Positions 1,250-14,505 of a stretch of DNA of 14,505 bases are shown piece after piece. The DNA is from Candidatus Vampirococcus lugosii (GTDB lineage: Bacteria > Patescibacteriota > Gracilibacteria > Absconditabacterales > Absconditicoccaceae): positions 1-14,505 of the forward strand of contig NZ_JAEDAM010000021.1 in NCBI RefSeq assembly GCF_018420025.1, written 5' to 3'. The number at the start of each line of letters is the position of its first letter. Positions within the stretch are counted from its first letter, which is position 1. The notes under the pieces were generated by a model that was not told the DNA's origin, did not search any database, and saw only the letters and a program-made list of their open reading frames with translations. Position numbers and translations under genes: made by a program.

Positions 1250-2656
1250 TTAAAATTCTTTATTTTCCAAAAATTCAATTGCTTTTGTTTCATCTTGTTC
1301 TATAAAGATTTCTACAGATTTTTTTGCTTTTTCCAATAGATTTTTTGAATTTTCCAATGCTTTGTGTGAATCTTGTACTAATTGAGCTATTTTTGATTGA
1401 ACTTTTTCATCAAGTTTTGGTAGTATAAATTTAGCAAAATCATTTTTATTACTTGCTTCTAAGATCATTCCTCTTGCAGTTCTTTTCAATAGTTCTCTAT
1501 AAATCCAAGATTTCATTAAAATTAAATTTGTTTCAGCATTAAAAAATTTTGGTTTCAATATAAAAAATCAAGTAGAAGCAACAAAATCTTCTTTATTATG
1601 ATCAACAATAGCTACTTTCTCAGCAGAACCACGAATAGAAGAAACAAGAACATCATTTTTTTCTATTTTCATTTGTGCCCTACTTGGTAAGTCTTGAGAT
1701 AATATTTTATTATTTGAATTTACAGTTCCCAAACTTGCATTTATATCTGCAAGTTCTATATATTGAAAAGATTTGTTTTCCTCTTTTTTGATTCTTTTAT
1801 TTGAAATTGTTATAAGATTATCTAAATGATCCCATCATCAATGATAGTTTTTAATTTTTTCTATAATTTCATCATATTTTGGTTGGAAAAATTCAGCATC
1901 TATTCTTCAGAAAATATCTATTTCTTTACTATCTTTGATAGAAATATTGTTTTCTGTAGGTTGATAATCTTCTAATCAAATTTCTTTTAGCAATACTTGT
2001 TCAGCTTGTGAATATAGTTTTTTTGATTCTTCTCTTTGTTGGTAAGATTCTTGAACAAGTTCAGCTATTTTTTGTTGGAAAGAATTTGAAGGAATAGGAA
2101 AAGGTAGGTTATCTAATATATAAGTTGGAAATCTTGGGTGCTCATTTCATTCTTGACTATAAAATAATATTTTTTGAACTTCTTCAGTAGATAGAAATAT
2201 ATATAAAAATTCAGGCAATAGTCAATTATTAGTTTTTAATGGTAGCAATTCAGTTGTTGTATATACTAAATCATCAAAAATAATTCAAACTTGTTGTAAA
2301 TACGGTCTCAAACGAGAAATAACAACTATTTTATTTCATACAATATTTTTTGTGCTTTTTATATTAGAAACTTTAGATTCTATTATCTCATTTATTTGAA
2401 AATTTCATATATTTTCTAGTTCTAATAATTTTATTACTTCATTTTGATTTTTATAATTTTTGGGACTAAAAGTTTTTTTATCAAAATAAAATAATTCTCA
2501 TAATTTACAATATTTTTTAGATTTTAAATAAGATATAGAATTTATTTTTTTAGGATGATAAACTTCTGCTCATATTCTATAAGAATATTCCAAATCTTTC
2601 ACTTCCACAATTGAAACATCAAGATTTTTTTGTTCTATTATTTGTTGGTAGGTCAT
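1250..2656 (-). CDS. hsdS: type I restriction-modification specificity subunit HsdS (468 aa)
   Basis: Continuous frame with table 25 from ATG 2656 to TAA 1252-1250. It has two target-recognition halves, each opening with the family motif (RIGAEVYHPK and RIDAEFFQPKY). There are two conserved coiled-coil spacers (FQQKIAELVQESYQQREESKKLYSQAEQVLL and VQSKIAQLVQDSHKALENSKNLLEKAKKSV), which is the classic internal duplication of HsdS. Confidence 0.9.
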
Positions 2657-4095
2657 TGGTTTTTAAGACTATTTAAAATTTTTATCATTTCTTGTATAGA
2701 ATTATCTAATTCTTCCTCTGAATAATCATCATTATGATTATTCTCTGGATGATGAATAGAATGTCTTATATATTCTTGAAGTGAAACATCAATTTCTTTT
2801 CATTTAATTCAATTTTTATCTTTAACCCATTTTTTTGTTTTATCTATTTCATTTAATTCAATTTTATTTTTTATTTCTAAATATCAATAAAGCTCATTAT
2901 GAAATTCAACTGTAGGTAAATTATAAGCATAATAATTTATTTCTCACCAAGAAGGACTATATTTTCAAAATAATCAAAAGTTTTCAGCTGTATTTTGTAT
3001 TTTTATAGTTTCATCTTCTTTAGTAAAAATATTTACTTTTTTTAATTTTCATCAAGTTTCTTTAAAAATATATGGAGAATGTGTTGTTAAAAAAATTTGT
3101 TGTGTTTCTGATAACTTATTTAATGCTTTAATAAGTTTTATTTGAGCTTTAGGATGTAAACAAATTTCAGGCTCATCAATAAAAAAATAAAATGGTTTTT
3201 TATTTTTTTCTTCTGATTCTGGCAACATATTTATATATACTTGTAATAAAGTTAATGCTATAGCTCTTTGCATTCAACTTCATTTCTCATCTAAAAAAGT
3301 TTTTGTTCCATCATCAACTTCAATTTTTGTATTTTTAAAATATGAACTAACATCTAAATTTTCAAAGTGAAAGTTTATTTTTGCATCTCAAAATTGTTCT
3401 TTAAAAGTTGTTTCTACATCTTGTCAAATTTCATTCAATTTTGATTTTAAACTATTTTCTCAATCATTAAAAACTTCATTATATTTTTTCTCAAAATCAA
3501 TATATTCTTGACTATCCTTAAATCATTCAGATATTTTTGAAATCAATTTTCAAACTATAGTTGTACTTCAAAATTTAGTTATTTCTTCTGGATTTGTATC
3601 TGCCCAAATAAAATCAATGTCAAAATATTGTTTAAAAGATTTATCAAATCAAGTAGGATTTTCATATTGCAAAGATTCAAAATTATAAACTCATAATTTT
3701 TTAATATTCATATCAACAGACTTTTTTCATCATTGATCAATTACTTTTTTCTCTGAACTTCTTCATAATTTAATTAATTCCATTCAATCATCTAATTTTT
3801 GAATATATTTTTCATATTTTGGTCTTAAATTATCTAATGAATTTCAAAGCATTTCAATTTTAACTATTACAGGATTATTTTTATTGTTTTTATTTTTTAA
3901 ATCATCTTCATTACTTCATTTTGGTAGTCAAGAAAATAAAAAATTAACAGCTTCAAAAACTGTTGATTTTCAAGTATTGTTTTCTCATATAAAAAAGTTT
4001 AATCAATTATTTTTTTGATTTGGAAAATTAAAATCTATTTCAGTTTTTCATCAAAATCATTTAAAATTTTCAATTATGATCTTTTTTAAAAACAT
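2638..4095 (-). CDS. AAA/ABC-type (SMC/OLD/AAA_15-21-like) ATPase with a C-terminal R-x4-H (HEPN-like) domain, embedded in the type I R-M operon (485 aa)
   Basis: ATG at 4095 and TAA at 2640-2638. N-terminus is FLKKIIIENFKGFGGKTEIDF. Walker A is GENNTGKST, with both glycines encoded by TGA. Signature-like GSGMQRAIAL, Walker B FYFFIDEPEICLHP and H-loop LTTHSP are present. The C-terminal ~140 aa (KYSPSWGEINYYAYNLPTVEFHNELYGYLE...LQEYIRHSIHHPENNH...) contains RHSIHH, which fits R-[NHD]-x3-H. The gene overlaps the hsdS start by 19 nt. Confidence 0.85.
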
Positions 4096-4120
4096 TTTCA
4101 ATCAATTTTAAAAAACTAAA

Positions 4121-6052
4121 CTACTCACTCAAAAAATTAAAATCTTGTTCTTTTCACCACTGCACAAAAGCATCTGCTATATCCATCAAATCAGTTTGTA
4201 ATACTCTATTTTCATTTTCATCTTCTTTATATACATAATCACCACTATTATCTTTGAAAGGTAATTTGGAAGTAGCAAAAAATATTGGATAATTTTTAAC
4301 TTTTGGATTTCATCACTCATCAAGTTCATCTTCTTTCCATTTTTGTAAAAACAATACTGATGTTTTTGTTCAAGTATGAGGTTTAAAAGCATTTTGATCC
4401 AATCCTACTACTGACAAAATCCTTGCTTTTTTCATGATAAAATCACGAATATGTTCTTCTGATGTATTATTAAAAACTCATTGAGGCAAAACTATTGCAA
4501 GTCTTCAACCAGGTTTTACTACAGATAAATTTCTTTCTATAAATAAAATATGTCTTGAAGTTTGACTTACAAGCTTTCATTTTTGATTTTTACCTAAATC
4601 ATAATCAGATAACAATCTTTTGTCTGCTACTTTACCAGCAAAGGGAGGGTTTGCCAATAGCACATCAAATTTTAGTTCTTTTAAACTTTCTTTGTTTTCT
4701 TTATCTTTTTTAATATCTGAAAATTCTTGTATAAGATGAGATCTTTCTAATTCATATTTTATAGGTGATTTATGCCAATTGTTTGTATCCAAAGAATTAA
4801 GTTTGAAAATATGACTTTTACCATCTCAAGCTATAAGCATAATAGCCCTTGAAATCTTGGAAGTTCTTTCATCAAAATCTATACCAAATAAATATTTTTT
4901 TGCATATCTATCCCTAAAATCTGAATCAGAAGCTTTTGGAAAATGTTTTTCTCTTACATATTTCATAGTATGCACCAAAAATCAAGCACTACCACAAGCT
5001 GTATCTATTACATAATCTTTTTTTCAAGGATTCAACATTTTTACACACATATCAATAACTACTCTTGGTGTAAAATATTGTCCTTTCTCTCATTTACTAG
5101 ATTTTTGTATAAGATACTCAAATGCATCATCTATCACTCTTAAATCACTTCCAAACAATGATATATTTTCAAGTAATCAAACACATAAAGACAAATGTTC
5201 TGGTGATAATTTAATTTTATCTGTTGTTTCAAAAATATCATATTGCCATTCTTCTTTTGCTGATTCAAAAAGTTCATCTATTGCATCTTTAGTTTTTTGT
5301 AGATTTTTACCATATTTTCTAAAAAATAGTTCTTCATTTTGTCTATCTTTTGCCTCTGTTTCATCAAATAATTTTGCAAATATTATTTTAAAAATCTCTT
5401 CAAATGCATCAAAACCAGTATGAGCCAAAACTAATTCTTCCAAGTCTAAAATTACTTTTGAAAGATCTTGTTCTTCAAGGTCTGATAAAGTTTTCTTTTT
5501 CTTAAAAAGATCTTCTACTTCTTCACCATATTTTGGAATGTCTCAAAGTGTATCAAAGTCAGCTGGATAAGGTCTATATAAGATAGTATGTACTTGTCAG
5601 TTCAAAGCAACTCATATAGGAGCTCATTTTGCATTTAGATAACTTTTCAATTGTTCAAGATCATTTTTTTGTCATGGAGCTTTTAGTTCTATTACAATTT
5701 TTTCTGTAGTATTATCATCACTATATACTACAACATCTACTCTTTTATGATCATATTTTTCTCTACCAAATTGGACATCAACTTCAGTATCTATAAGTTT
5801 TTTTGGATATTTATATTTTTTGATCAATTCATCTATATATAATTGTTTTACTATCTCTTCTGGTGCAGATTTTCAAGTTGTTTCATTATATATAAGTCTT
5901 TCTTCTTCTCTTCTTCATAATGATTTAATATAATATTTACCTTCTTCTCAATCTTTTGTATAAAATTTTAGATTTTCAAGATTATCAAATAATAATAATG
6001 ATTTTTCAGGGTTTGGAAAAATTTTTTTTAAAACTTCTTTAGTATACACCAT
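4121..6052 (-). CDS. hsdM: type I R-M N6-adenine DNA methyltransferase HsdM with an N-terminal HSDR_N-like (PD-(D/E)xK-type) domain (643 aa)
   Basis: ATG at 6052 and TAG at 4123-4121. SAM motif I is VIDTACGSAGFLVH and catalytic motif IV is LLANPPFAG. PGGRLAIVLPQGVFNN and AFKPHTGTKTSVLFLQKW are typical HsdM. The N-terminal ~160 aa carry RVDVVVYSDDNTTEKIVIELKAPGQKNDLEQLKSYLNAKGAPIGVALNGQ (D...ExK). Confidence 0.92.
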
Positions 6053-6121
6053 AATATAAATATTTTGTAAATAAATACTACTTTTTATATACTCATTTTA
6101 AACTTTTTTTCAACCAAAATA

Positions 6122-7211: not shown

Positions 7212-8009
7212 TTAAAAAAATATTATTCAATATAATTTTTCTCATTCTTTTATTTCATTTAATATTTTATCTGAAAAAAATATTATAGTAAAAGCAATTC
7301 AATTTACCAAAAAATGAAATGCAAAAGTATATATCAAAGATTTTGTTTTATTATATATATAAGCAAGTATTAATGCCAAAATAAATAAATTTCAAAATAC
7401 TGAAAATTCAAAATGGATGAATGTAAAAATAAATGCAGAAAAAAATATTCAAATATATTTTCAATATCATTCAGTCAACATTTTTTGTATATATCATCTA
7501 TAAACTATTTCCTCAATAAGAGGCACCAATATAGCTATCATCAAAAACATAATTAAATGTTCATACCAATTATTTATAGAGATTTGTCATATAAAATTAG
7601 CTACATTTTGTTCTCCAAAAAAACCTGGAAAATTAATTCAAATTAAGTTTATTATAAATAATAAAAATCATGATATTAAAATATATAAAAAATATGCACC
7701 TATAGTATATTTAAATAAATTAATAAATCATAACCAAACAAATTGTTTTTTATAAAAATTTATTATATAATTAAAAAATTTTTCTTTAATATTATTTTCA
7801 CTTACTTTCATAGCAATAAATAAAAATATTCATACAAATATTTGTTGAAATAAAAATGCAATAATAAAAATACTAATAAAATTTAAATTTAAACTTAAAA
7901 AAAATGATTTTATTAATTCTACATAATATGTAGGTAAATATTTCAAAAATAAGTTTAGCATAAGATAAAGTCAAACAAATGTAGACACTCACAATAATTG
8001 TTTTTTCAT
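7212..8009 (-). CDS. CPBP family intramembrane glutamic endopeptidase (CAAX protease / Abi domain, 265 aa)
   Basis: ATG at 8009 and TAA at 7214-7212. The protein is polytopic and hydrophobic, with the three CPBP motifs in order: EEIVYRGY (EExxxR), FSAFIFTFIHF (FxxxH) and FHFLVNG (HxxxN). Confidence 0.8.
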
Positions 8010-8045
8010 TTTTAACAAAAAACTAAATATATAAAAAAATAAAAA

Positions 8046-8916: not shown

Positions 8917-11484
8917 TTATTCTTTGATACCTGAATATTCTATTAAAAATTTGGATATATCTCTATTTATAAATCAAGCTGTACTTCCTCATCGTTCTGA
9001 TTGTCTAGGACGACGAACTTGAGTAATTATAACATATCTTGGATCTTTGGCAGTAGTAACTCATGCAAAACCTCATATAGTCCATCATGCACCAGATTGA
9101 TAGGATCATTGAAAAGCAATTTGAGAAGTTCATGATTTTCATCATACACTATAAAAAGGAATTCAAACCATACTTCATAAATGTTGTTCATCTTCCATAT
9201 CTAATATATCTCACATAGCTTTTAACATTTTTTCAGAAGTTTCTTGAGAGAATATTTTATGCCCCAATTTAGGTTCAAAATAAGTATATTTATCTGTTTC
9301 TCTATTATATATTTTATCTAATATTGTAGGTCTAACACTATATCATCAATTAATCATTGTAGAATATGCACTAGCTAATTGAATTGGAGTTATTAATAAT
9401 CATTGTCCAAAACTATTATTGAAGAATCTAGCCATAGAAAAATCTTCTAAACCAGTAACTCTACCAGATTCTTCACCTGCAAGTTCAATTCAAGTAAGTT
9501 TACCAAATCAGAGTTTATCCAAATAAGAATAAAAAACATACCTTGTAGTTTTTTGAACTATTCTTACCATTCACACATTACAAGACCAATCAAGTGCATT
9601 AAGAAAAGTTTTATATCATTCACATTGAGATTGAACATTACTTATAGTATAAGGTCAAATTTCAACACTTCATTCATCTTCATAACGATCATCAAGCTCA
9701 ATTTCATCAGAATCAAGTCAAATTGCTGTAGTAACAGATTTAAAAGTACTACCAGGTTCAGAAGGATAAGCTATATTTCTATCTATAAATACTTGTGGTC
9801 ATAATTTATTTGTAAAAACATATTTTTTTAAAGTTAAATCTTTCCTTTCAGAATAAGTTGTCATTCTCAAATCTCAATCATCATTTAACAAAACAGGAAT
9901 ATCAATATATTGATCATCATCTACAATATCTCTTTGATCATAAGATAATGGCTCAATGTTGTAATAATCAGAATAAGAATTTGGATCATAATTTGGATAA
10001 TTTACAGATGCTTTTATTTTACCAGTATGAGGATCCATAACCAAAACTGATATAGTATCAGGAACTAATACATTATAATATGTTTTTACAATTCTTTCTA
10101 CATTTTCTTGTATAGTAGGATCTATTGTAAGATATACATCAGAACCATTAATAGGATTTTTTATTTCAAAATTATTTGAACCAACAATTCATATCCATGG
10201 TACAGATACTCAAACCATTTGTCAATCTATTCATTTAAGGATATCATCAAAATATTCTTCTACTCAATAAAATCATTTTCATTCATTATTTATATATCAC
10301 AAAATATGAGACATAAAAGATCAATAAGGATAATATCTTTTTTGACTTTTTTCATAACCTAATCAATGCAATAAAGGTACAGAATCTATTGTTTCAGTAA
10401 AATATTTTTCTTTAAGATCATTTATTTTTTGAATAATTTGACCTGACACATTATCTGCTATTCTTACATATCTTATTTCTCTTTCTTGTAAGCTTTTGAC
10501 AATTACTTCTTGAGTATAATTATATCAATGTTTATTAAATAAATCTAAAATTTCCCTACTAGTACTATTAATATTATTTACTTTAGTAGGAATGAAATAA
10601 AGATAATTTCAAACTATAGAAATATAATCTTTATCCAAATTTTCAAGTTTATTAAGAAAATTATTATTATCAAAATATCAAAAATAATTTGCTTTTCTAA
10701 TTCAAGGTTTGGTAATATCAGATAATTTTTCTGATATAAGCTCATATGCATCATCTTGAGAAAAATCATCAATAGCTTCTTGAGTTTTTAAATCAAAAGA
10801 TTGTTGATCAAGAAAAATTTCTTGAGAATCTCAAGTTAAGAAAAAAGTTTTTTCTTCTTGTGGCAATATTTTAACTCAAGAAAAATCTTCTATATTTCTT
10901 ATACATGTAATTTCATCTGGAACTTCAAGTCCAAATTGTTCACAAAAATGTTCATATAAAACTGGTGTTATTTTTTCTACAAATCATTCTCTATCATTAA
11001 TAAATCATGGATCAGCAAATATAGTATATATATTAATATTTTCAGTAAGTTTTCTTTCATTTCAAGAGTTATCAGTTACAAAAATATTTCATCTTTTAGC
11101 AGTCAAAGTAGTATTACTAGCATGTTGAGTAAATAATTTTTTTTGATATTCTTTTGCATTTACAACTTGTAAATAAAATAATCTACCAAAAATAATCATA
11201 AATAAAAAAACAAAAAATCAAATTATTTTTATTTCTTTACTTGAATTTTGTAAAATATTTACATATTTATTTGATTTAGTTCTTTTTCAAAATCTTGATC
11301 TAATTTTTTCATAATAAAATGTTAATTTTCTATATATTTTATCTTTCAAAATATTATCTTTTTTTCTTTTATTATTTTTTTTTCAAAATTTATAAACAAA
11401 ATTTTTGTAATACAAAAATACATTTTTTAATATTTTATTTTTCAAAATATTATCTTTTTTTCTTCTATTATTTTTTCTTTTCAT
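8917..11484 (-). CDS. class B penicillin-binding protein (PBP2/FtsI-type peptidoglycan D,D-transpeptidase), up to 855 aa; start uncertain
   Basis: TAA at 8919-8917. The TM anchor GFFVFLFMIIFGRLFYLQVV is followed by AKRGNIFVTDNSGN, RYYPYG and HILGY. Transpeptidase motifs are EPGSTFK (SxxK), DWSCN (SxN), FGQGLLITPIQLASAYS and GGKSGTSQ (KSG). The first in-frame ATG is at 11484, giving an 86-aa Lys-rich region before the TM helix. An alternative TTG lies at 11349. There is also a ~35-aa acidic insertion between NYPNYDPN and EPGSTFK relative to typical PBP2. Confidence 0.88.
11334..11380. repeat. direct repeat copy A (~47 nt) in the PBP 5' region
   Basis: TATATTTTATCTTTCAAAATATTATCTTTTTTTCTTTTATTATTTTTT matches 11430-11476 with 2 mismatches by my manual alignment. 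The offset is exactly 96 nt. Confidence 0.7.
11430..11476. repeat. direct repeat copy B (~47 nt) in the PBP 5' region
   Basis: Partner of 11334-11380. On the minus strand both copies read in the PBP frame as (K/R)RKKDNILK(D/N)KI. Confidence 0.7.
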
Positions 11485-11509: not shown

Positions 11510-13768
11510 TTATTTATTTGATTTTGGCAATGGTTTAGCATTTTTACAATCTGGATATTTATTACAAGCAAGAAAAGGTCATCTTTTACTTTTTTTTACC
11601 ATCATTTTTCATTCTCAACATTTATCACAAGTTTCACCTCAATATTTTTCTTCAAGTTTTTCTATTTTTTCATCAGGTATTTTTCATATCCATTTAACTT
11701 CTGGGTATTCACTACTTGCCAAAAAAGGTCAAAATCTTCAAATTTTTACAACTATTGTTCATCATTCAGGACAAGGTTTTCATTCAAATTTTTCTTTTAA
11801 TGAATCAAGTTTTGATTTTTCTTCTTCAGATTGTCTTATATATTTACAATCTGGATAATTACTACATCAAATAAATTTTCACATTTTTGAAAATTTATAT
11901 ACTAATTCATTTCAACATTCAGGGCATTTTTCTCATACAATCATTTGTTCAGCTTCAGCATTATCAGCATTTTTTAATTCTTTTTCAAATTTTGTCCAAA
12001 AATCTTTCATCAATTTTTTCCAATCTTTTTCTCAATGAGAAACTTTATCCAAATCTTTTTCCATTTTGGCAGTAAATTTGTAGTCCATAAGATTTCAAAA
12101 TTGTTTTTCCAAAAATTTATTTACAACAAAAGCTATCTCAGTAGGAAATAATTTTTTTGCTTCATCTTTATCAACATATCATCTATCAATAATAGTTCAT
12201 ATTGTTGGTGCATAAGTTGATGGTCTACCAATTCATAATTCTTCCATTTTTTTTACTAAAGAACTTTCTGTATATCTACTTGGTGGTTTAGTAAATTGTT
12301 GGTAAGCAGATATTAATTTTGAATTTAATGTTTTTCATTTATTCAAAGATGGCAAAATTTCTTCATTACTAGGATAAGATCATAAAAAATCTTTATATAT
12401 TCTATAAAATCAATCAAAATAAATTGTTTGTCATTTAGATAACCAAATTTGATCTTTATCTTTTTCAGGACTAAACTCATAAGTAATATTTTCAGCAATA
12501 GCTTCACTCATTTGACTTGCTATAGTTCTAATCCATATCAATTGATAAAGCATTTTTTCTTTACTAGCAAGAGATGTTTCATCAGGTGATTTTTTTATAT
12601 TTGTAGGTCTTATAGCTTCATGAGCTTCTTGAGCAGAAGATCATTTAGTTTTGAATTGTCTAGTTTTTACATAATTTTCTCAATATTTATCTTGTATAAA
12701 TCATTTACAAGCTCAAATTGCTTGTTTGGAAAGATTGCAACTATCAGTTCTCATATATGTAATATATCAATTTTCATATAATTTTTGTGCTACCATCATA
12801 ACTTGTTTTACTCACCATCAAAACTTATTTGAAGCTTGTTGTTGTAATGTAGAAGTTATAAATGGAGCTTGAGGATTCTTTTTTGATTTAGTTTTTTTAA
12901 TATTTATTAATTCAAAATCTATTCAAGATTTATAATTTAATACTTTATTTCATGTTTTTTTATCTTTACTTTCTTTAGGTTTTTTTAAATCTAAATTAGT
13001 TAAAGATTTATCAACATCTTTTTCATTTAATAATTTTATTTTTTTATTTTTAATTTTATCTAATTGAGCTATTAATCATTCTTGTCATTCAAAATCCGTA
13101 ACTATTTTCCAAGATTCTTCAGGTTCAAAAGATTTTATTTCATTTTCTTTTTCTATTACAAGTTTTACTGCAACGGATTGAACTCTTCATGCAGAAAGTC
13201 ATCTTTTTACTTTTTTCCACAATACTGGTGAGACTTTGAAACCAACTAATCTATCCAAAACTCTTCTTGCTTGTTGACTATTTACAAGATCTATATCAAC
13301 TTGTCTAGGATTGTCTATAGCATTTTGTAATGCATCTTTTGTAATTTCATGAAAAACAATTCTAGGAGTATCTTTCAATTTTAATTTAAGTGCCGTCAAT
13401 AAATGCCAAGCTATAGCTTCTCATTCACGATCTTCATCAGTTGCAAGCCATACTTTTTCATAATTTTTTGCTAATTTTTTTAGTTCTGTTACTGTTTTTT
13501 TCTTATCAGGCATAACTTCATAAGTAGTTTCAAAATTATTTTCTATATCAATACCAATTCATTTTTTTGGTAAATCTATAATATGTCCCATACTAGCAAC
13601 TATTTCATAATCATTTCACAAAAATTTTTTAATTGTTTTAGATTTTGCTGGAGACTCTACAATAACTAAATTTTTACCATAACTATTTGCAATTATTTTT
13701 TTCTTTGTTGTTTTGGTACTAGTTTTCTTTGTAGTTGTTTTATTATTTTTTTTGGTAGATTTTGGCAT
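11510..13768 (-). CDS. topA: DNA topoisomerase I (type IA), 752 aa
   Basis: ATG at 13768 and TAA at 11512-11510. Toprim region is [34 protein letters not shown] and ATDEDREGEAIAWH. WKKVKRGLSAGRVQSVAV has both Gly encoded by TGA. The active-site Tyr region is [19 protein letters not shown] is present. There are three C-terminal zinc-ribbon repeats (CPECG...CSNYPDC; a degenerate CPEGG...SSEYPEV; CDKCG...CNKYPDC). The N-terminal ~25 aa form a Lys/Thr-rich tail. Confidence 0.96.
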
Positions 13769-13928: not shown

Positions 13929-13956
13929 TTGAAAAAGATAAAAAAAATAATATAAT
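13929..13956 (+). promoter_or_regulatory. candidate sigma70-like promoter driving the mini-ORF/repeat/pilin region
   Basis: TTGAAA (13929-13934), a 16-nt spacer, then a perfect TATAAT (13951-13956), about 40 nt upstream of the ATGs at 13997 and 14005. AT-richness lowers the specificity of this call. Confidence 0.3.
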
Positions 13957-13996
13957 TTAAATGTTGGAAATTAATTAATATTTAATATTGAAAATT

Positions 13997-14125
13997 ATGA
14001 AAAAATGAGTAAATTTAGTTGTGAGTTGTGAGTTGTGAGTTGTGAGTTGTGAGTTGTGAGTTGTGAGTTGTAAATTAGATAGTTTATGTATAAATAATTT
14101 TTGAGTTAATAAAAAAACATGATAG
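13997..14125 (+). CDS. candidate leader mini-ORF (42 aa) spanning the heptanucleotide repeat; an alternative overlapping 22-aa ORF lies at 14005..14073
   Basis: ATG 13997 gives MKKGVNLVVSCELGVVSCELGVVSCKLDSLCINNFGVNKKTG, stopping at TAG 14123-14125 inside the left arm of the downstream hairpin. ATG 14005 gives MSKFSCELGVVSCELGVVSCEL, stopping at TAA 14071-14073. Both are open only because TGA is sense. I have no evidence of translation. Confidence 0.2.
14017..14071. repeat. heptanucleotide microsatellite (AGTTGTG)x7 plus a partial eighth unit
   Basis: Seven perfect tandem copies occupy 14017-14065 and a 6/7 copy occupies 14066-14071. The tract is conspicuously G-rich relative to its AT-rich surroundings. 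The unit length is not a multiple of 3. Confidence 0.97.
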
Positions 14126-14148
14126 ATTTTTTTCTATTGTGTTTTTTT
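14111..14148 (+). terminator. intrinsic-terminator-like hairpin (A-tract/stem/loop/stem/T-tract)
   Basis: AAAAAAACATGATAGA (14111-14126) pairs with TCTATTGTGTTTTTTT (14133-14148). That is 16 pairs including 2 G-U wobbles, with a 6-nt T loop. The core CATGATAGA/TCTATTGTG is followed by T7. It lies between the mini-ORFs and the pilin ATG. Confidence 0.5.
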
Positions 14149-14215
14149 ATTGATTTAAGAAAAAATCAATACAATATATTTTATATATATTAAATACAAT
14201 AAAAAATGAGAAACA

Positions 14216-14505
14216 ATAAATGATTTACATTAGTAGAAGTTGTGGTAACAGTGTGAATTATCGCAATATTGGCGGTAGTAGGATGAATTAGTATTAGTAT
14301 TTGGGTAAGTAAAGCAAGGGATGCACAAGTGGTAAACAATGTGCAGACTGTAGCATGAGGACTTGAAACTTATCATATTAAGAAATTTGAATTTCCTGAA
14401 CCAGATGGGAATGTTTTGACATGAAATTTGGAACAGTGAATGATATGATCTTGAGTGATGAAGAAATTATCAAGTTTTGTAAATGTAAAAAATTTATCAA
14501 ATTCT
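14216..14505 (+). CDS. type IV pilin / pseudopilin-like protein with a prepilin N-terminal cleavage-methylation motif (3' partial, runs off the window)
   Basis: ATG at 14216. MRNNKGFTLVEVVVTVGIIAILAVVGGISISIW is the canonical (K/R)GFTL(V/I)E signal followed by a hydrophobic helix. The invariant -1 Gly is encoded by TGA. The frame stays open to the window end. Confidence 0.8.

What the first reader, a model, noticed from the sequence alone, without database searches (positions are those of the whole stretch)
13929..14218. Heptanucleotide microsatellite in overlapping mini-ORFs, followed by a terminator, upstream of a type IV pilin gene: a candidate phase-variation or attenuation switch
(AGTTGTG)x7.9 is a perfect tandem array whose 7-nt unit shifts the reading frame with every gain or loss of a unit. 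The unit contains TGA, so it is translatable in all three frames only under table 25, as SCELGVV repeats. Two ATGs (13997 and 14005) open ORFs across it. One stops at 14073, 38 nt before a 16-bp hairpin with a T7 tract. The other stops at 14125, inside the left arm of that hairpin, where a terminating ribosome would be expected to prevent hairpin formation. The pilin ATG lies 68 nt beyond the hairpin. A TTGAAA-16-TATAAT promoter candidate sits upstream of the mini-ORFs. Slipped-strand changes in copy number could therefore toggle which stop is used, and hence termination versus readthrough into the pilin. Seven-bp repeat tracts controlling adhesin expression are known from the H. influenzae hmw promoters. 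A translation-coupled version in a CPR episymbiont pilus locus would be new.
Basis: inference. Interest (0 to 1): 0.65.

Follow-up and report, generated by a model that had tools for sequence, protein, structure and literature searches.

The report
Heptamer repeat in a pilin leader
A perfect 7-base repeat and an unusually strong RNA hairpin lie between the best promoter-like site and a pilus-subunit gene of the predatory bacterium Vampirococcus lugosii; this looks like a slippage-driven expression switch, but the only available assembly cannot show that the repeat number varies.

Summary
(AGTTGTG)x7.9 occupies 14017-14071 with 100% identity. It lies in the divergent topA/pilin intergenic region of the whole 14,505-bp Ca. 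Vampirococcus lugosii contig (SR1/Absconditabacteria, UGA=Gly). The two ATGs, their stops, the TTGAAA-16-TATAAT site and the U7 hairpin are all present.

Corrections:
- The hairpin is 27 bp (14100-14159, -26.5 kcal/mol), the strongest fold on either strand of the contig.
- All six non-Watson-Crick pairs are G.U on the plus strand only.
- The pilin ATG is 14206.
- The frame logic has three states, not two.
- The 42-aa ORF is already a GenBank hypothetical protein with no homologue.

Caveats:
- The array is exactly 55 nt, the SPAdes k-max I recall for 125-nt reads. Any true length of 55+7m collapses to this, so copy number and frames are uncertain.
- No strain or orthologous locus exists in the searched collections, so variability is untested.

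Best reading (about 0.4): a contingency repeat in the roughly 240-nt pilin leader. Its closest analogue is the H. influenzae hmw 5'-UTR heptamer with its RNase III hairpin, but here the repeat is not a hairpin arm. Moderate interest.

The parts
13929..13956 (+). Sigma-70-like promoter candidate TTGAAA-16-TATAAT. The predicted start near 13963 gives a pilin leader of about 240 nt.
   Evidence: 11/12 match. It is one of only two 11/12 matches on both strands of the 14.5-kb contig. It has the same -35 hexamer and 16-nt spacing as the likely divergent topA promoter (TTGAAA 13837-13832, TATAAA 13815-13810; read from the sequence). This is a consensus match only; no transcript data exist.
13997..14125 (+). 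Mini-ORF 1, 42 aa (MKKGVNLVVSCELGVVSCELGVVSCKLDSLCINNFGVNKKTG). It crosses the repeat, and its TAG lies at the top of the hairpin's 5' arm.
   Evidence: Table-25 translation. It is identical to the GenBank hypothetical protein P0127, which UniRef auto-names 'Lipoprotein'. No other hit among 5.8 billion proteins. No Pfam family.
14005..14073 (+). Mini-ORF 2, 22 aa, in a second frame. It stops at the TAA formed by the last base of the array.
   Evidence: After a change of one unit it swaps roles with mini-ORF 1.
14017..14071 (.). Perfect heptanucleotide microsatellite (AGTTGTG)x7.86, 55 nt, 43% GC in a 22% GC genome.
   Evidence: TRF score 110, 100% identity. Unique in the window; 0 of 200 shuffles reach the observed count. 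Only two perfect SSRs of at least 20 nt occur in 102.7 kb of related DNA. The length equals the SPAdes k-max (my recollection), so the true length may be 55+7m.
14100..14159 (+). 27-bp RNA hairpin with a 6-nt loop. It contains an inner 16-bp A7-stem-U7 unit, and the core 9-bp stem is 14118-14141.
   Evidence: Energy -26.5 kcal/mol, z = -9.0. It is the strongest 60-nt fold on either strand of the contig: -25.9 against a mean of -4.3, sd 3.0. The minus strand folds at only -13 kcal/mol because all 6 imperfect pairs are G.U on the plus strand. It stays formed (P about 0.9) at any repeat number.
14142..14148 (+). U7 tract directly after the core stem; a possible intrinsic termination point.
   Evidence: Sequence. 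The core stem is -7.2 kcal/mol, against -10.3 and -12.8 for terminators of relatives. The standard terminator scan does not call it, because it has fewer than 3 G-C pairs.
14119..14193 (+). Mini-ORF 3, 24 aa. Its ATG is buried in the hairpin's 5' arm and overlaps the mini-ORF 1 stop (ACATGATAG). It ends 12 nt before the pilin ATG, in the pilin frame.
   Evidence: A role in translational coupling is inference only.
14206..14505 (+). Type IV pilin / pseudopilin gene; the 5' 100 codons only, cut by the contig end.
   Evidence: PF07963 N_methyl, 34.8 bits against a cutoff of 21.2. It is GenBank P0121, 'type II secretion system protein, partial'. The motif KG|FTLVE has Gly-1 encoded by TGA.
11510..13768 (-). 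topA, the divergent neighbour. It defines the left edge of the 437-nt intergenic region.
   Evidence: 100% identical to V. lugosii TopA P0001.

Best explanation
The repeat is a slippage-prone (contingency) tract inside the long transcribed leader of a type IV pilin gene of Ca. Vampirococcus lugosii.

Proposed sequence of events:
1. Transcription starts at the TTGAAA-16-TATAAT site, near 13963.
2. It runs through two short ORFs that start in different frames just upstream of the repeat.
3. It then passes the repeat and a very stable hairpin with a U7 tract.
4. It reaches the pilin ATG 46 nt after the hairpin.

Gain or loss of 7-nt units changes leader length and shifts the mini-ORF frames in a three-state cycle, and so changes how much pilin is made. 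This would be stochastic, heritable and reversible variation of the pilus in an obligate epibiotic predator.

Shown: the repeat, the ORF geometry, the hairpin and its plus-strand RNA bias, the pilin identity, and the lack of a nearer promoter-like site.

Inferred: that the leader is transcribed from that site, that the repeat number actually varies, and that the variation affects the pilin.

I weigh two sub-mechanisms about equally:
(a) Ribosome-dependent. Only a mini-ORF in the right frame carries a ribosome into the 5' arm of the hairpin. That would prevent termination at U7, or unmask mini-ORF 3 and the pilin start.
(b) hmw-like. The repeat-bearing 5'-UTR and its long duplex affect mRNA processing or stability, for example through RNase III, independently of translation.
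For: - The array is perfect, long and unique. Its composition (43% GC, no C on the plus strand) is atypical for a 22% GC genome.
- It lies 134 nt upstream of a surface-organelle gene. This is comparable to the hmw arrays, which lie 69-106 bp upstream.
- The best promoter-like site lies upstream of the repeat and none lies downstream of the hairpin.
- The hairpin is the strongest fold in the contig and is biased towards the plus-strand RNA. All 6 imperfect pairs are G.U on that strand, which has probability about 0.016 if transitions fall either way.
- Relatives' terminators have the same stem, U-tract and outer-pairing design.
- The frame cycle was computed explicitly.
- Real genes lack a Shine-Dalgarno motif, so the mini-ORF starts are not disfavoured.
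- Another short tandem repeat, (AAATTT)2 against (AAATTT)3 at 7879-7899, differs between two assemblies of the same bloom. So unit-number heterogeneity occurs in this material.
- Type IV pili are proposed to mediate host attachment and DNA uptake in this organism.
- The hmw precedent shows that a heptamer SSR plus a long 5'-UTR hairpin can form one regulatory unit.
Against: - No copy-number variant of this array has been seen. Only one assembly covers it.
- No orthologous locus exists. The topA-pilin arrangement is absent from Ca. Absconditicoccus praedator and four other relatives.
- Promoter-like hexamers are no more frequent than in shuffled sequence in this AT-rich DNA (133 found against 137.7 expected).
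- The mini-ORF features are individually unremarkable. About 0.9 ATG is expected by chance in the 54 nt before the array, and a 17-codon open stretch has a probability of about 0.26 (my estimates from base composition).
- The mini-ORF peptide has no homologue.
- The repeat is not part of the hairpin, and predicted accessibility of the pilin start barely changes from 3 to 20 units (0.58 to 0.52).
- The core stem is weak for a terminator.
- The assembled copy number may be collapsed.
- The DNA came from whole-genome amplification of about 10 cells.
Confidence: 0.4

Rival explanations
1. It is a neutral intergenic VNTR. The repeat arose by slippage and has no regulatory role. The hairpin is an ordinary, possibly bidirectional, terminator, insulator or mRNA-stability element unrelated to the repeat.
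For: - No conservation or variation data exist.
- Folding shows no interplay between repeat and hairpin.
- The minus strand still forms a 12+5-bp stem with a U7 tail, at -13 kcal/mol.
- The same heptamer forms short arrays sporadically in unrelated viral contigs.
- The mini-ORF features are within chance expectation (my estimates).
Against: - Perfect arrays of this length are very rare in this clade's DNA: 2 in 102.7 kb.
- The purity (55 of 55 bases) implies ongoing or recent slippage.
- It sits in the only leader available to a surface-organelle gene.
Confidence: 0.25
2. It is a stand-alone phase-variable mini-gene. The promoter, the 42-aa ORF carrying the repeat in its 5' half, and the hairpin as its terminator form one small transcription unit encoding a tiny secreted or lipidated peptide. 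Frameshifts in the repeat switch the peptide ON or OFF, and the pilin is expressed separately or by read-through.
For: - NCBI annotates the ORF, and UniRef labels it 'Lipoprotein'.
- MKK followed by LVVSC resembles an n-region plus a lipobox (sequence).
- The stop codon sits inside the terminator-like hairpin, as at many gene ends.
- A repeat in the 5' coding part preceded by alternative ATGs is the classic translational switch design, as in the H. influenzae lic loci and Neisseria opa (my own knowledge).
Against: - No homologue exists anywhere and no Pfam family matches.
- The first Cys is at residue 11, after a hydrophobic stretch of only 6-7 residues, and Glu recurs in every repeat. This is a poor signal peptide (my inference; no predictor was run).
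- Only 17 non-repeat codons follow the array.
- No promoter-like site is left for the pilin.
Confidence: 0.15
3. It is an assembly or amplification artefact. Either the repeat is not as drawn, because a longer or heterogeneous array was collapsed to k = 55, or the array was generated or altered by MDA/MALBAC.
For: - The array length of 55 nt equals the SPAdes default k-max for 125-nt reads (my recollection). The simulation shows that every true length of 55+7m gives exactly 55.
- The DNA was whole-genome amplified from about 10 cells.
- Both assemblies break close to this locus, the Logan contig at 13945 and the SPAdes contig at 14505.
Against: - Collapse would change the number of units, not the existence of the array.
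- The flanks are unique and continuous with genuine code-25 genes on both sides.
- There is no match to the MALBAC primer.
- Polymerase chimeras do not create perfect 7-nt tandem arrays (general knowledge).
Confidence: 0.08
4. It is a binding platform for an RNA-binding protein. The array presents GAG triplets every 7 nt (4-nt spacers) just upstream of a terminator-like hairpin. This resembles the NAG-triplet arrays bound by the ring-shaped regulators HutP and TRAP that control termination.
For: Eight GAG triplets with constant 4-nt spacing lie 29 nt upstream of the hairpin (sequence). HutP binds UAG triplets separated by 4 nt and TRAP binds (G/U)AG triplets; this is my own knowledge and was not tested here.
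Against: - Perfect identity of the spacers points to slippage rather than selection on the triplets alone.
- No HutP or TRAP homologue could be searched for in this genome.
- Those families are known essentially from Bacillota (my own knowledge).
- Rfam has no match.
Confidence: 0.04

Closest known systems
Haemophilus influenzae hmw1A/hmw2A 5'-UTR heptanucleotide SSR with an RNase III-processed hairpin (Dawid 1999 as cited in PMC2651432; PMC12721329)
   Same: - The unit is 7 nt.
- The array lies some 70-130 nt upstream of the start codon of a surface adhesin-type gene and downstream of its promoter.
- A long, stable, imperfect RNA hairpin lies in the same 5'-UTR.
- Expression in hmw is graded with repeat number.
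   Different: [quoted passage not shown] Here the repeat is 29 nt upstream of a self-contained hairpin and has no dedicated partner.
- hmw arrays have at least 11 units. Here 7.9 are assembled, which may be a floor.
- This hairpin carries a U7 tract and is crossed by mini-ORFs.
- Variation and RNase III cleavage are untested here.
Translational SSR switches with alternative start codons (H. influenzae lic1/lic2A CAAT repeats; Neisseria opa CTCTT repeats). Cited from my own knowledge, not checked in a paper here.
   Same: Two ATGs in different frames lie immediately upstream of a frameshifting repeat. This gives a three-state outcome as units are gained or lost.
   Different: In those systems the repeat is in the 5' end of the structural gene itself. 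Here every frame ends within 54 nt of the array, so any effect on the pilin must be indirect.
Ribosome-mediated transcription attenuation in which the leader ORF runs into the terminator (E. coli pyrBI type). Cited from my own knowledge.
   Same: The order is promoter, leader ORF, hairpin with U tract, then structural gene. A ribosome finishing the leader ORF would cover the 5' arm of the hairpin.
   Different: The known systems sense a metabolite through coupling of RNA polymerase and ribosome, not through DNA slippage. The terminator function, the leader translation and the peptide's conservation are unshown here.
Hypervariable 9-mer (PTD) repeat gene of a Gracilibacterium (PMC6851277)
   Same: Both are code-25 CPR lineages with perfect short tandem repeats tied to a surface protein. 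That paper notes long stem-loops in the flanking UTRs, and the repeat broke the short-read assembly.
   Different: That repeat is in-frame, coding and varies by synonymous substitution. It is not a frameshifting unit and does not lie upstream of a pilin.

Membership tests
SSR contingency locus (slipped-strand phase or rheostat variation) | Uninterrupted tandem array of short units, long enough to slip | tested here: met
   55 nt, 7.86 units, 100% identity. Chance is excluded.
SSR contingency locus (slipped-strand phase or rheostat variation) | Placed where a change in units alters expression (5' coding region, promoter or 5'-UTR of a gene, typically for a surface structure) | tested here: met
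   It lies between the best promoter-like site and a type IV pilin gene, and inside two mini-ORFs. This shows position only; the effect is inferred.
SSR contingency locus (slipped-strand phase or rheostat variation) | Repeat number is polymorphic within populations or between strains | tested here: inconclusive
   Only one assembly spans it. The Logan contig of the same organism ends at 13945. There are no variant-length peptides in the protein collection. A different SSR (AAATTT) does differ by one unit between the two assemblies.
SSR contingency locus (slipped-strand phase or rheostat variation) | Expression of the associated gene changes with repeat number | not testable with these tools
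   This needs transcript or protein measurements or reporter constructs.
hmw-type 5'-UTR heptamer SSR with RNase III hairpin | The repeats themselves form one arm of a long 5'-UTR hairpin | tested here: not met
   Partition-function folding puts 0.02 of the repeat's pairing on the hairpin. The hairpin is self-contained at every copy number.
hmw-type 5'-UTR heptamer SSR with RNase III hairpin | Heptamer array transcribed within a long 5'-UTR of an adhesin gene | tested here: inconclusive
   The position fits. Transcription is not shown.
hmw-type 5'-UTR heptamer SSR with RNase III hairpin | The hairpin is cleaved by RNase III, and cleavage raises expression | not testable with these tools
   A 27-bp duplex without bulges is long enough for RNase III (my own knowledge). 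Neither the enzyme's presence in this genome nor cleavage could be checked.
Leader-peptide transcription attenuator | Intrinsic terminator (stable stem followed by a U tract) between promoter and structural gene | tested here: inconclusive
   U7 is present. The core stem is only -7.2 kcal/mol with 2 G-C pairs, and the consensus scan does not call it. The overall design matches terminators of relatives.
Leader-peptide transcription attenuator | Leader ORF whose translation places a ribosome over the terminator or an alternative structure | tested here: met
   The mini-ORF 1 stop at 14123-14125 lies in the 5' arm. This holds in 2 of the 3 copy-number states, through one or the other ATG. It is geometry only.
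Leader-peptide transcription attenuator | Leader peptide or alternative antiterminator structure conserved in relatives | tested here: not met
   There is no homologue of the peptide, no orthologous locus, and no competing structure in the fold ensemble.
Type IV pilin / pseudopilin (class III signal peptide) | N-terminal G|F-T-L-[IV]-E methylation motif followed by a hydrophobic helix | tested here: met
   PF07963, 34.8 bits against a cutoff of 21.2. The sequence is MRNNKG|FTLVEVVVTVGIIAILAVV.
Bacterial lipoprotein (UniRef name of mini-ORF 1) | Signal peptide with a hydrophobic core and a lipobox Cys at a plausible distance | tested here: inconclusive
   LVVSC fits a lipobox pattern. However, the Cys is at residue 11 and Glu recurs in the repeat. 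No signal-peptide predictor was available.
Any curated RNA family (Rfam 15) | Covariance-model match at or above the gathering score | tested here: not met
   The only hit is RAGATH-30 at 14.3 bits against a gathering score of 59.5, E = 5.9, and it lies over the pilin start.

The most novel reading that the evidence does not exclude
The repeat is a DNA-slippage-gated attenuator. Its unit number selects which of two out-of-frame leader ORFs, or neither, delivers a ribosome into the 5' arm of the hairpin. That decides termination at U7, or unmasking of mini-ORF 3 and the pilin start. The result would be a heritable three-level stochastic switch for the type IV pilus of a CPR predator. It would be the first contingency locus described in the CPR/Patescibacteria, and the first phase-variation mechanism that couples an SSR to ribosome-mediated attenuation.
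Probability: 0.12. Interest if true: 0.75.

Novelty: new member of a known kind. Interest (0 to 1): 0.42.

Why it matters
- Type IV pili are thought to be how Vampirococcus and other CPR episymbionts attach to hosts and take up DNA. A slippage-driven switch on a pilin would mean that these tiny-genome organisms, which have few regulators, hedge their bets on host attachment as small-genome pathogens do.
- In the held literature, only one paper combines 'phase variation', 'Candidate Phyla Radiation' and 'pili'. It concerns an in-frame coding repeat.
- The claim can be tested cheaply with reads that already exist (run SRR13241708 and its siblings).
- There is also a practical lesson. A short-read assembler can report a microsatellite at exactly its k-mer length. 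Frame-based arguments drawn from MAG or SAG assemblies need read-level confirmation.

Tried and rejected
- Orthologous loci. TopA-based scans of the species-representative genomes and the metagenomes found no relative closer than 62%. In L001, Ca. Absconditicoccus praedator (L107), L108 and L110 there is no pilin next to topA. Comparative and covariation analysis was therefore impossible.
- Exact-protein look-ups. The table-11 N-terminal fragment is not on record. The second V. lugosii pilin, P0122, is not indexed.
- Pilin homology search. It found only 4 hits. P0123 lies inside a minor-pilin operon, not at an equivalent locus.
- Independent assembly. The Logan contig L111 is the same organism (99.93% identity) but ends at 13945, short of the repeat.
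- Known RNA families. None match.
- hmw-like pairing of the repeat into a hairpin. Not supported.
- My own argument that pairing beyond the U tract proves read-through. I withdrew it, because genuine terminators in relatives show the same outer pairing.
- MALBAC primer artefact. No match.
- Shared or mobile element. The 4-unit probe hits only two unrelated viral contigs (64% and 40% GC) among 2.9 million.
- Minus-strand coding. No ORF with a start crosses the array.
- A large ORF restored in another repeat state. Impossible, because the three frames stop at 14071, 14076 and 14123.
- The heptamer at L106:1690-1715 as a parallel switch. Rejected, because each unit carries an ATG, so an in-frame start is always present.
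Full report
**What the window is.**
- The window has 22% GC. It becomes a dense gene array only when TGA is read as sense.
- The TopA protein encoded at 11510-13768 (minus strand) is 100% identical to that of Candidatus Vampirococcus lugosii. The record's only contig is 14,505 bp, the length of the window. So the window is a whole contig of that genome.
- V. lugosii is an epibiotic predator close to Absconditabacteria (SR1) that reads UGA as glycine.
- The pilin gene confirms this locally. TGA=Gly gives MRNNKG|FTLVE with the invariant Gly-1. The fragment matches PF07963 above threshold.
- The genome was assembled with SPAdes 3.6.0 defaults from 2x125-nt reads. The reads came from three samples of about 10 cells each, taken from a clonal bloom and amplified by MDA or MALBAC.

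**The observation.**
- TRF reports 14017-14071, period 7, 7.9 copies, 100% identity, score 110.
- A two-unit probe finds nothing else in the window, and no shuffle reproduces it.
- ATG 13997 opens a 42-codon ORF ending at TAG 14123-14125. ATG 14005 opens a 22-codon ORF ending at TAA 14071-14073. All three frames of the array read SCELGVV under table 25.
- TTGAAA-16-TATAAT lies at 13929-13956.
The pilin ATG is at 14206, which is 57 nt after U7.

**The hairpin is larger and more remarkable than described.**
- Positions 14100-14159 form 27 consecutive pairs around a 6-nt loop, at -26.5 kcal/mol and z = -9.
- In a sliding scan of both strands it is the strongest 60-nt fold of the contig: -25.9 against a mean of -4.3 (sd 3.0), with the runner-up at -18.5.
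- The reverse strand reaches only -13 kcal/mol. All six imperfect pairs are G.U on the plus strand and would be A.C on the other. If transitions fell either way, that has probability about 0.016. This points to selection on a plus-strand RNA.
- I first took the pairing beyond the U tract as evidence for read-through. I withdrew that, because two clear terminators in relatives (L108:11774-11833 and L002:8729-8788) have the same stem, U6-7 tract and outer A/U pairing.
- The core stem here is weaker (-7.2 against -10.3 and -12.8 kcal/mol), and the standard scan does not call it. It could be a leaky terminator, a processing duplex, or both.

**Where the pilin is transcribed from.**
- Promoter-like hexamers are no commoner than in shuffled sequence in this AT-rich DNA.
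- Even so, the 13929-13956 site is one of only two 11/12 matches on 29 kb of strand. It shares its -35 hexamer and 16-nt spacing with the probable divergent topA promoter.
- No site of at least 9/12 lies between the hairpin and the pilin ATG.
- The simplest reading is a leader of about 240 nt containing the mini-ORFs, the repeat and the hairpin.

**Can the mini-ORFs be translated?**
- None of the eleven real genes in the contig has a Shine-Dalgarno motif. Their starts sit in plain A/T-rich sequence, as do ATG 13997 and ATG 14005. Translation is therefore neither favoured nor excluded.
- The 42-aa ORF is already annotated in GenBank (P0127; UniRef 'Lipoprotein'). It has no homologue, and no variant-length sibling, among 5.8 billion proteins. 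It matches no Pfam family.
- Modelling unit gain and loss gives a three-state cycle. ATG 13997 reaches TAG 14123 at the assembled number. ATG 14005 does so at one unit fewer or two more. Neither does so at one unit more or two fewer.
- No state opens a longer ORF, and no minus-strand ORF with a start crosses the array.
- A third small ORF (14119-14193) starts inside the hairpin's 5' arm, overlaps the mini-ORF 1 stop, and ends 12 nt before the pilin ATG. This is compatible with a translational coupling chain, but that is inference.

**Is the copy number trustworthy, and does it vary?**
- The array is exactly 55 nt long. That is the largest default k of SPAdes for 125-nt reads (my own knowledge of the program).
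- A simulation shows that any true array of 55+7m nt yields exactly 55 nt on the shortest path of a k=55 graph. The assembled number is therefore a floor, and the assignment of ATGs to stops is uncertain.
- A Logan assembly of run SRR13241708 is the same organism (99.93% identity), but it ends at 13945 and does not cover the array.
- The only differences between the two assemblies cluster at 7816-7899. They include (AAATTT)2 against (AAATTT)3, an in-frame Leu-Asn insertion in a CPBP-family protease gene. So unit-number heterogeneity exists in this material, whether from the cells or from the amplification.
- No closer relative or orthologous locus could be found.

**Comparison with known systems.**
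- The nearest analogue is the hmw1A/hmw2A locus of H. influenzae. There, heptamer arrays lie 69-106 bp upstream of the adhesin start. They are transcribed in the 5'-UTR, and ten repeats form one arm of a long hairpin cleaved by RNase III. Expression is inversely related to repeat number.
- Here the unit size, the position and the presence of a long 5'-UTR duplex match. But the repeat is not part of the duplex, and predicted accessibility of the pilin start is insensitive to copy number.
- Two ATGs in different frames ahead of a frameshifting repeat recall the lic and opa translational switches. A leader ORF running into a terminator recalls pyrBI-type attenuation. Both comparisons come from my own knowledge.
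- In the same clade, a Gracilibacterium carries a hypervariable in-frame 9-mer repeat in a surface protein gene flanked by long UTR stem-loops.
- Rfam has no matching family.

**Verdict.**
- The sequence features are real. The repeat and the hairpin are each statistically exceptional.
- The best reading is a contingency repeat in the pilin leader (about 0.4). The main rivals are a neutral VNTR (0.25), a stand-alone phase-variable mini-gene (0.15), and an assembly or amplification artefact affecting the array (0.08).
It rests on features that are individually within chance expectation in AT-rich DNA, and on a copy number the assembler may have collapsed (about 0.12).
- Existing reads can decide the key point.

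Noticed in passing
window 7816-7899 (inside the CPBP/Rce1-like gene 7212-8045, minus strand): Two assemblies of the same bloom differ here and nowhere else in 12.4 kb. The window has (AAATTT)2 and Logan contig L111 has (AAATTT)3, an in-frame Leu-Asn insertion, together with three nearby substitutions. This is either real micro-heterogeneity or a WGA artefact.
   Followed up: partly
window 13945 and 14505: Both independent assemblies break next to this locus. The Logan contig ends in the A8 run at 13945, inside the candidate promoter spacer. The SPAdes contig ends 300 nt into the pilin gene. No full-length copy of this pilin exists in the protein collection. This may hint at heterogeneity or repeats downstream.
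   Followed up: no
L106:1690-1715: In a Logan contig carrying a pilin operon, (GACAATG)x3.7 overlaps the start of a PF07963 pilin-like gene. Each unit carries an ATG, so an in-frame start is kept at any copy number of three or more and only the leader length would vary.
   Followed up: partly
window 11276-11476: A 96-nt tandem duplication (2.1 copies, 82% identity, TRF score 265) encodes a duplicated, roughly 32-aa K/R-rich N-terminal segment of the PBP2/FtsI-like transpeptidase.
   Followed up: no
window 13693-13758: A 24-nt periodic repeat encodes the Lys/Thr-rich low-complexity N-terminal tail of TopA.
   Followed up: no
window 1250-6097: A restriction-modification-type cluster. It comprises an N6_Mtase/HSDR_N_2/Eco57I-domain protein (4121-6097), an AAA_15/AAA_21 ATPase (2638-4107) and a specificity-subunit-like gene (1250-2662). 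No restriction subunit is visible in the contig (Pfam labels; translations).
   Followed up: no
L107:8537-8596 (Ca. Absconditicoccus praedator, downstream of topA): Two adjacent perfect 11-bp G+C-rich hairpins (-36 kcal/mol in 60 nt) are by far the strongest fold in that 14-kb locus. They could be a terminator pair or a small RNA.
   Followed up: no
window 7350-7379 (minus strand): The only other 11/12 promoter-like site in the contig (TTGGCA-18-TATAAT) lies inside the CPBP-family gene, upstream of the DUF2103 gene. It is a possible internal promoter.
   Followed up: no
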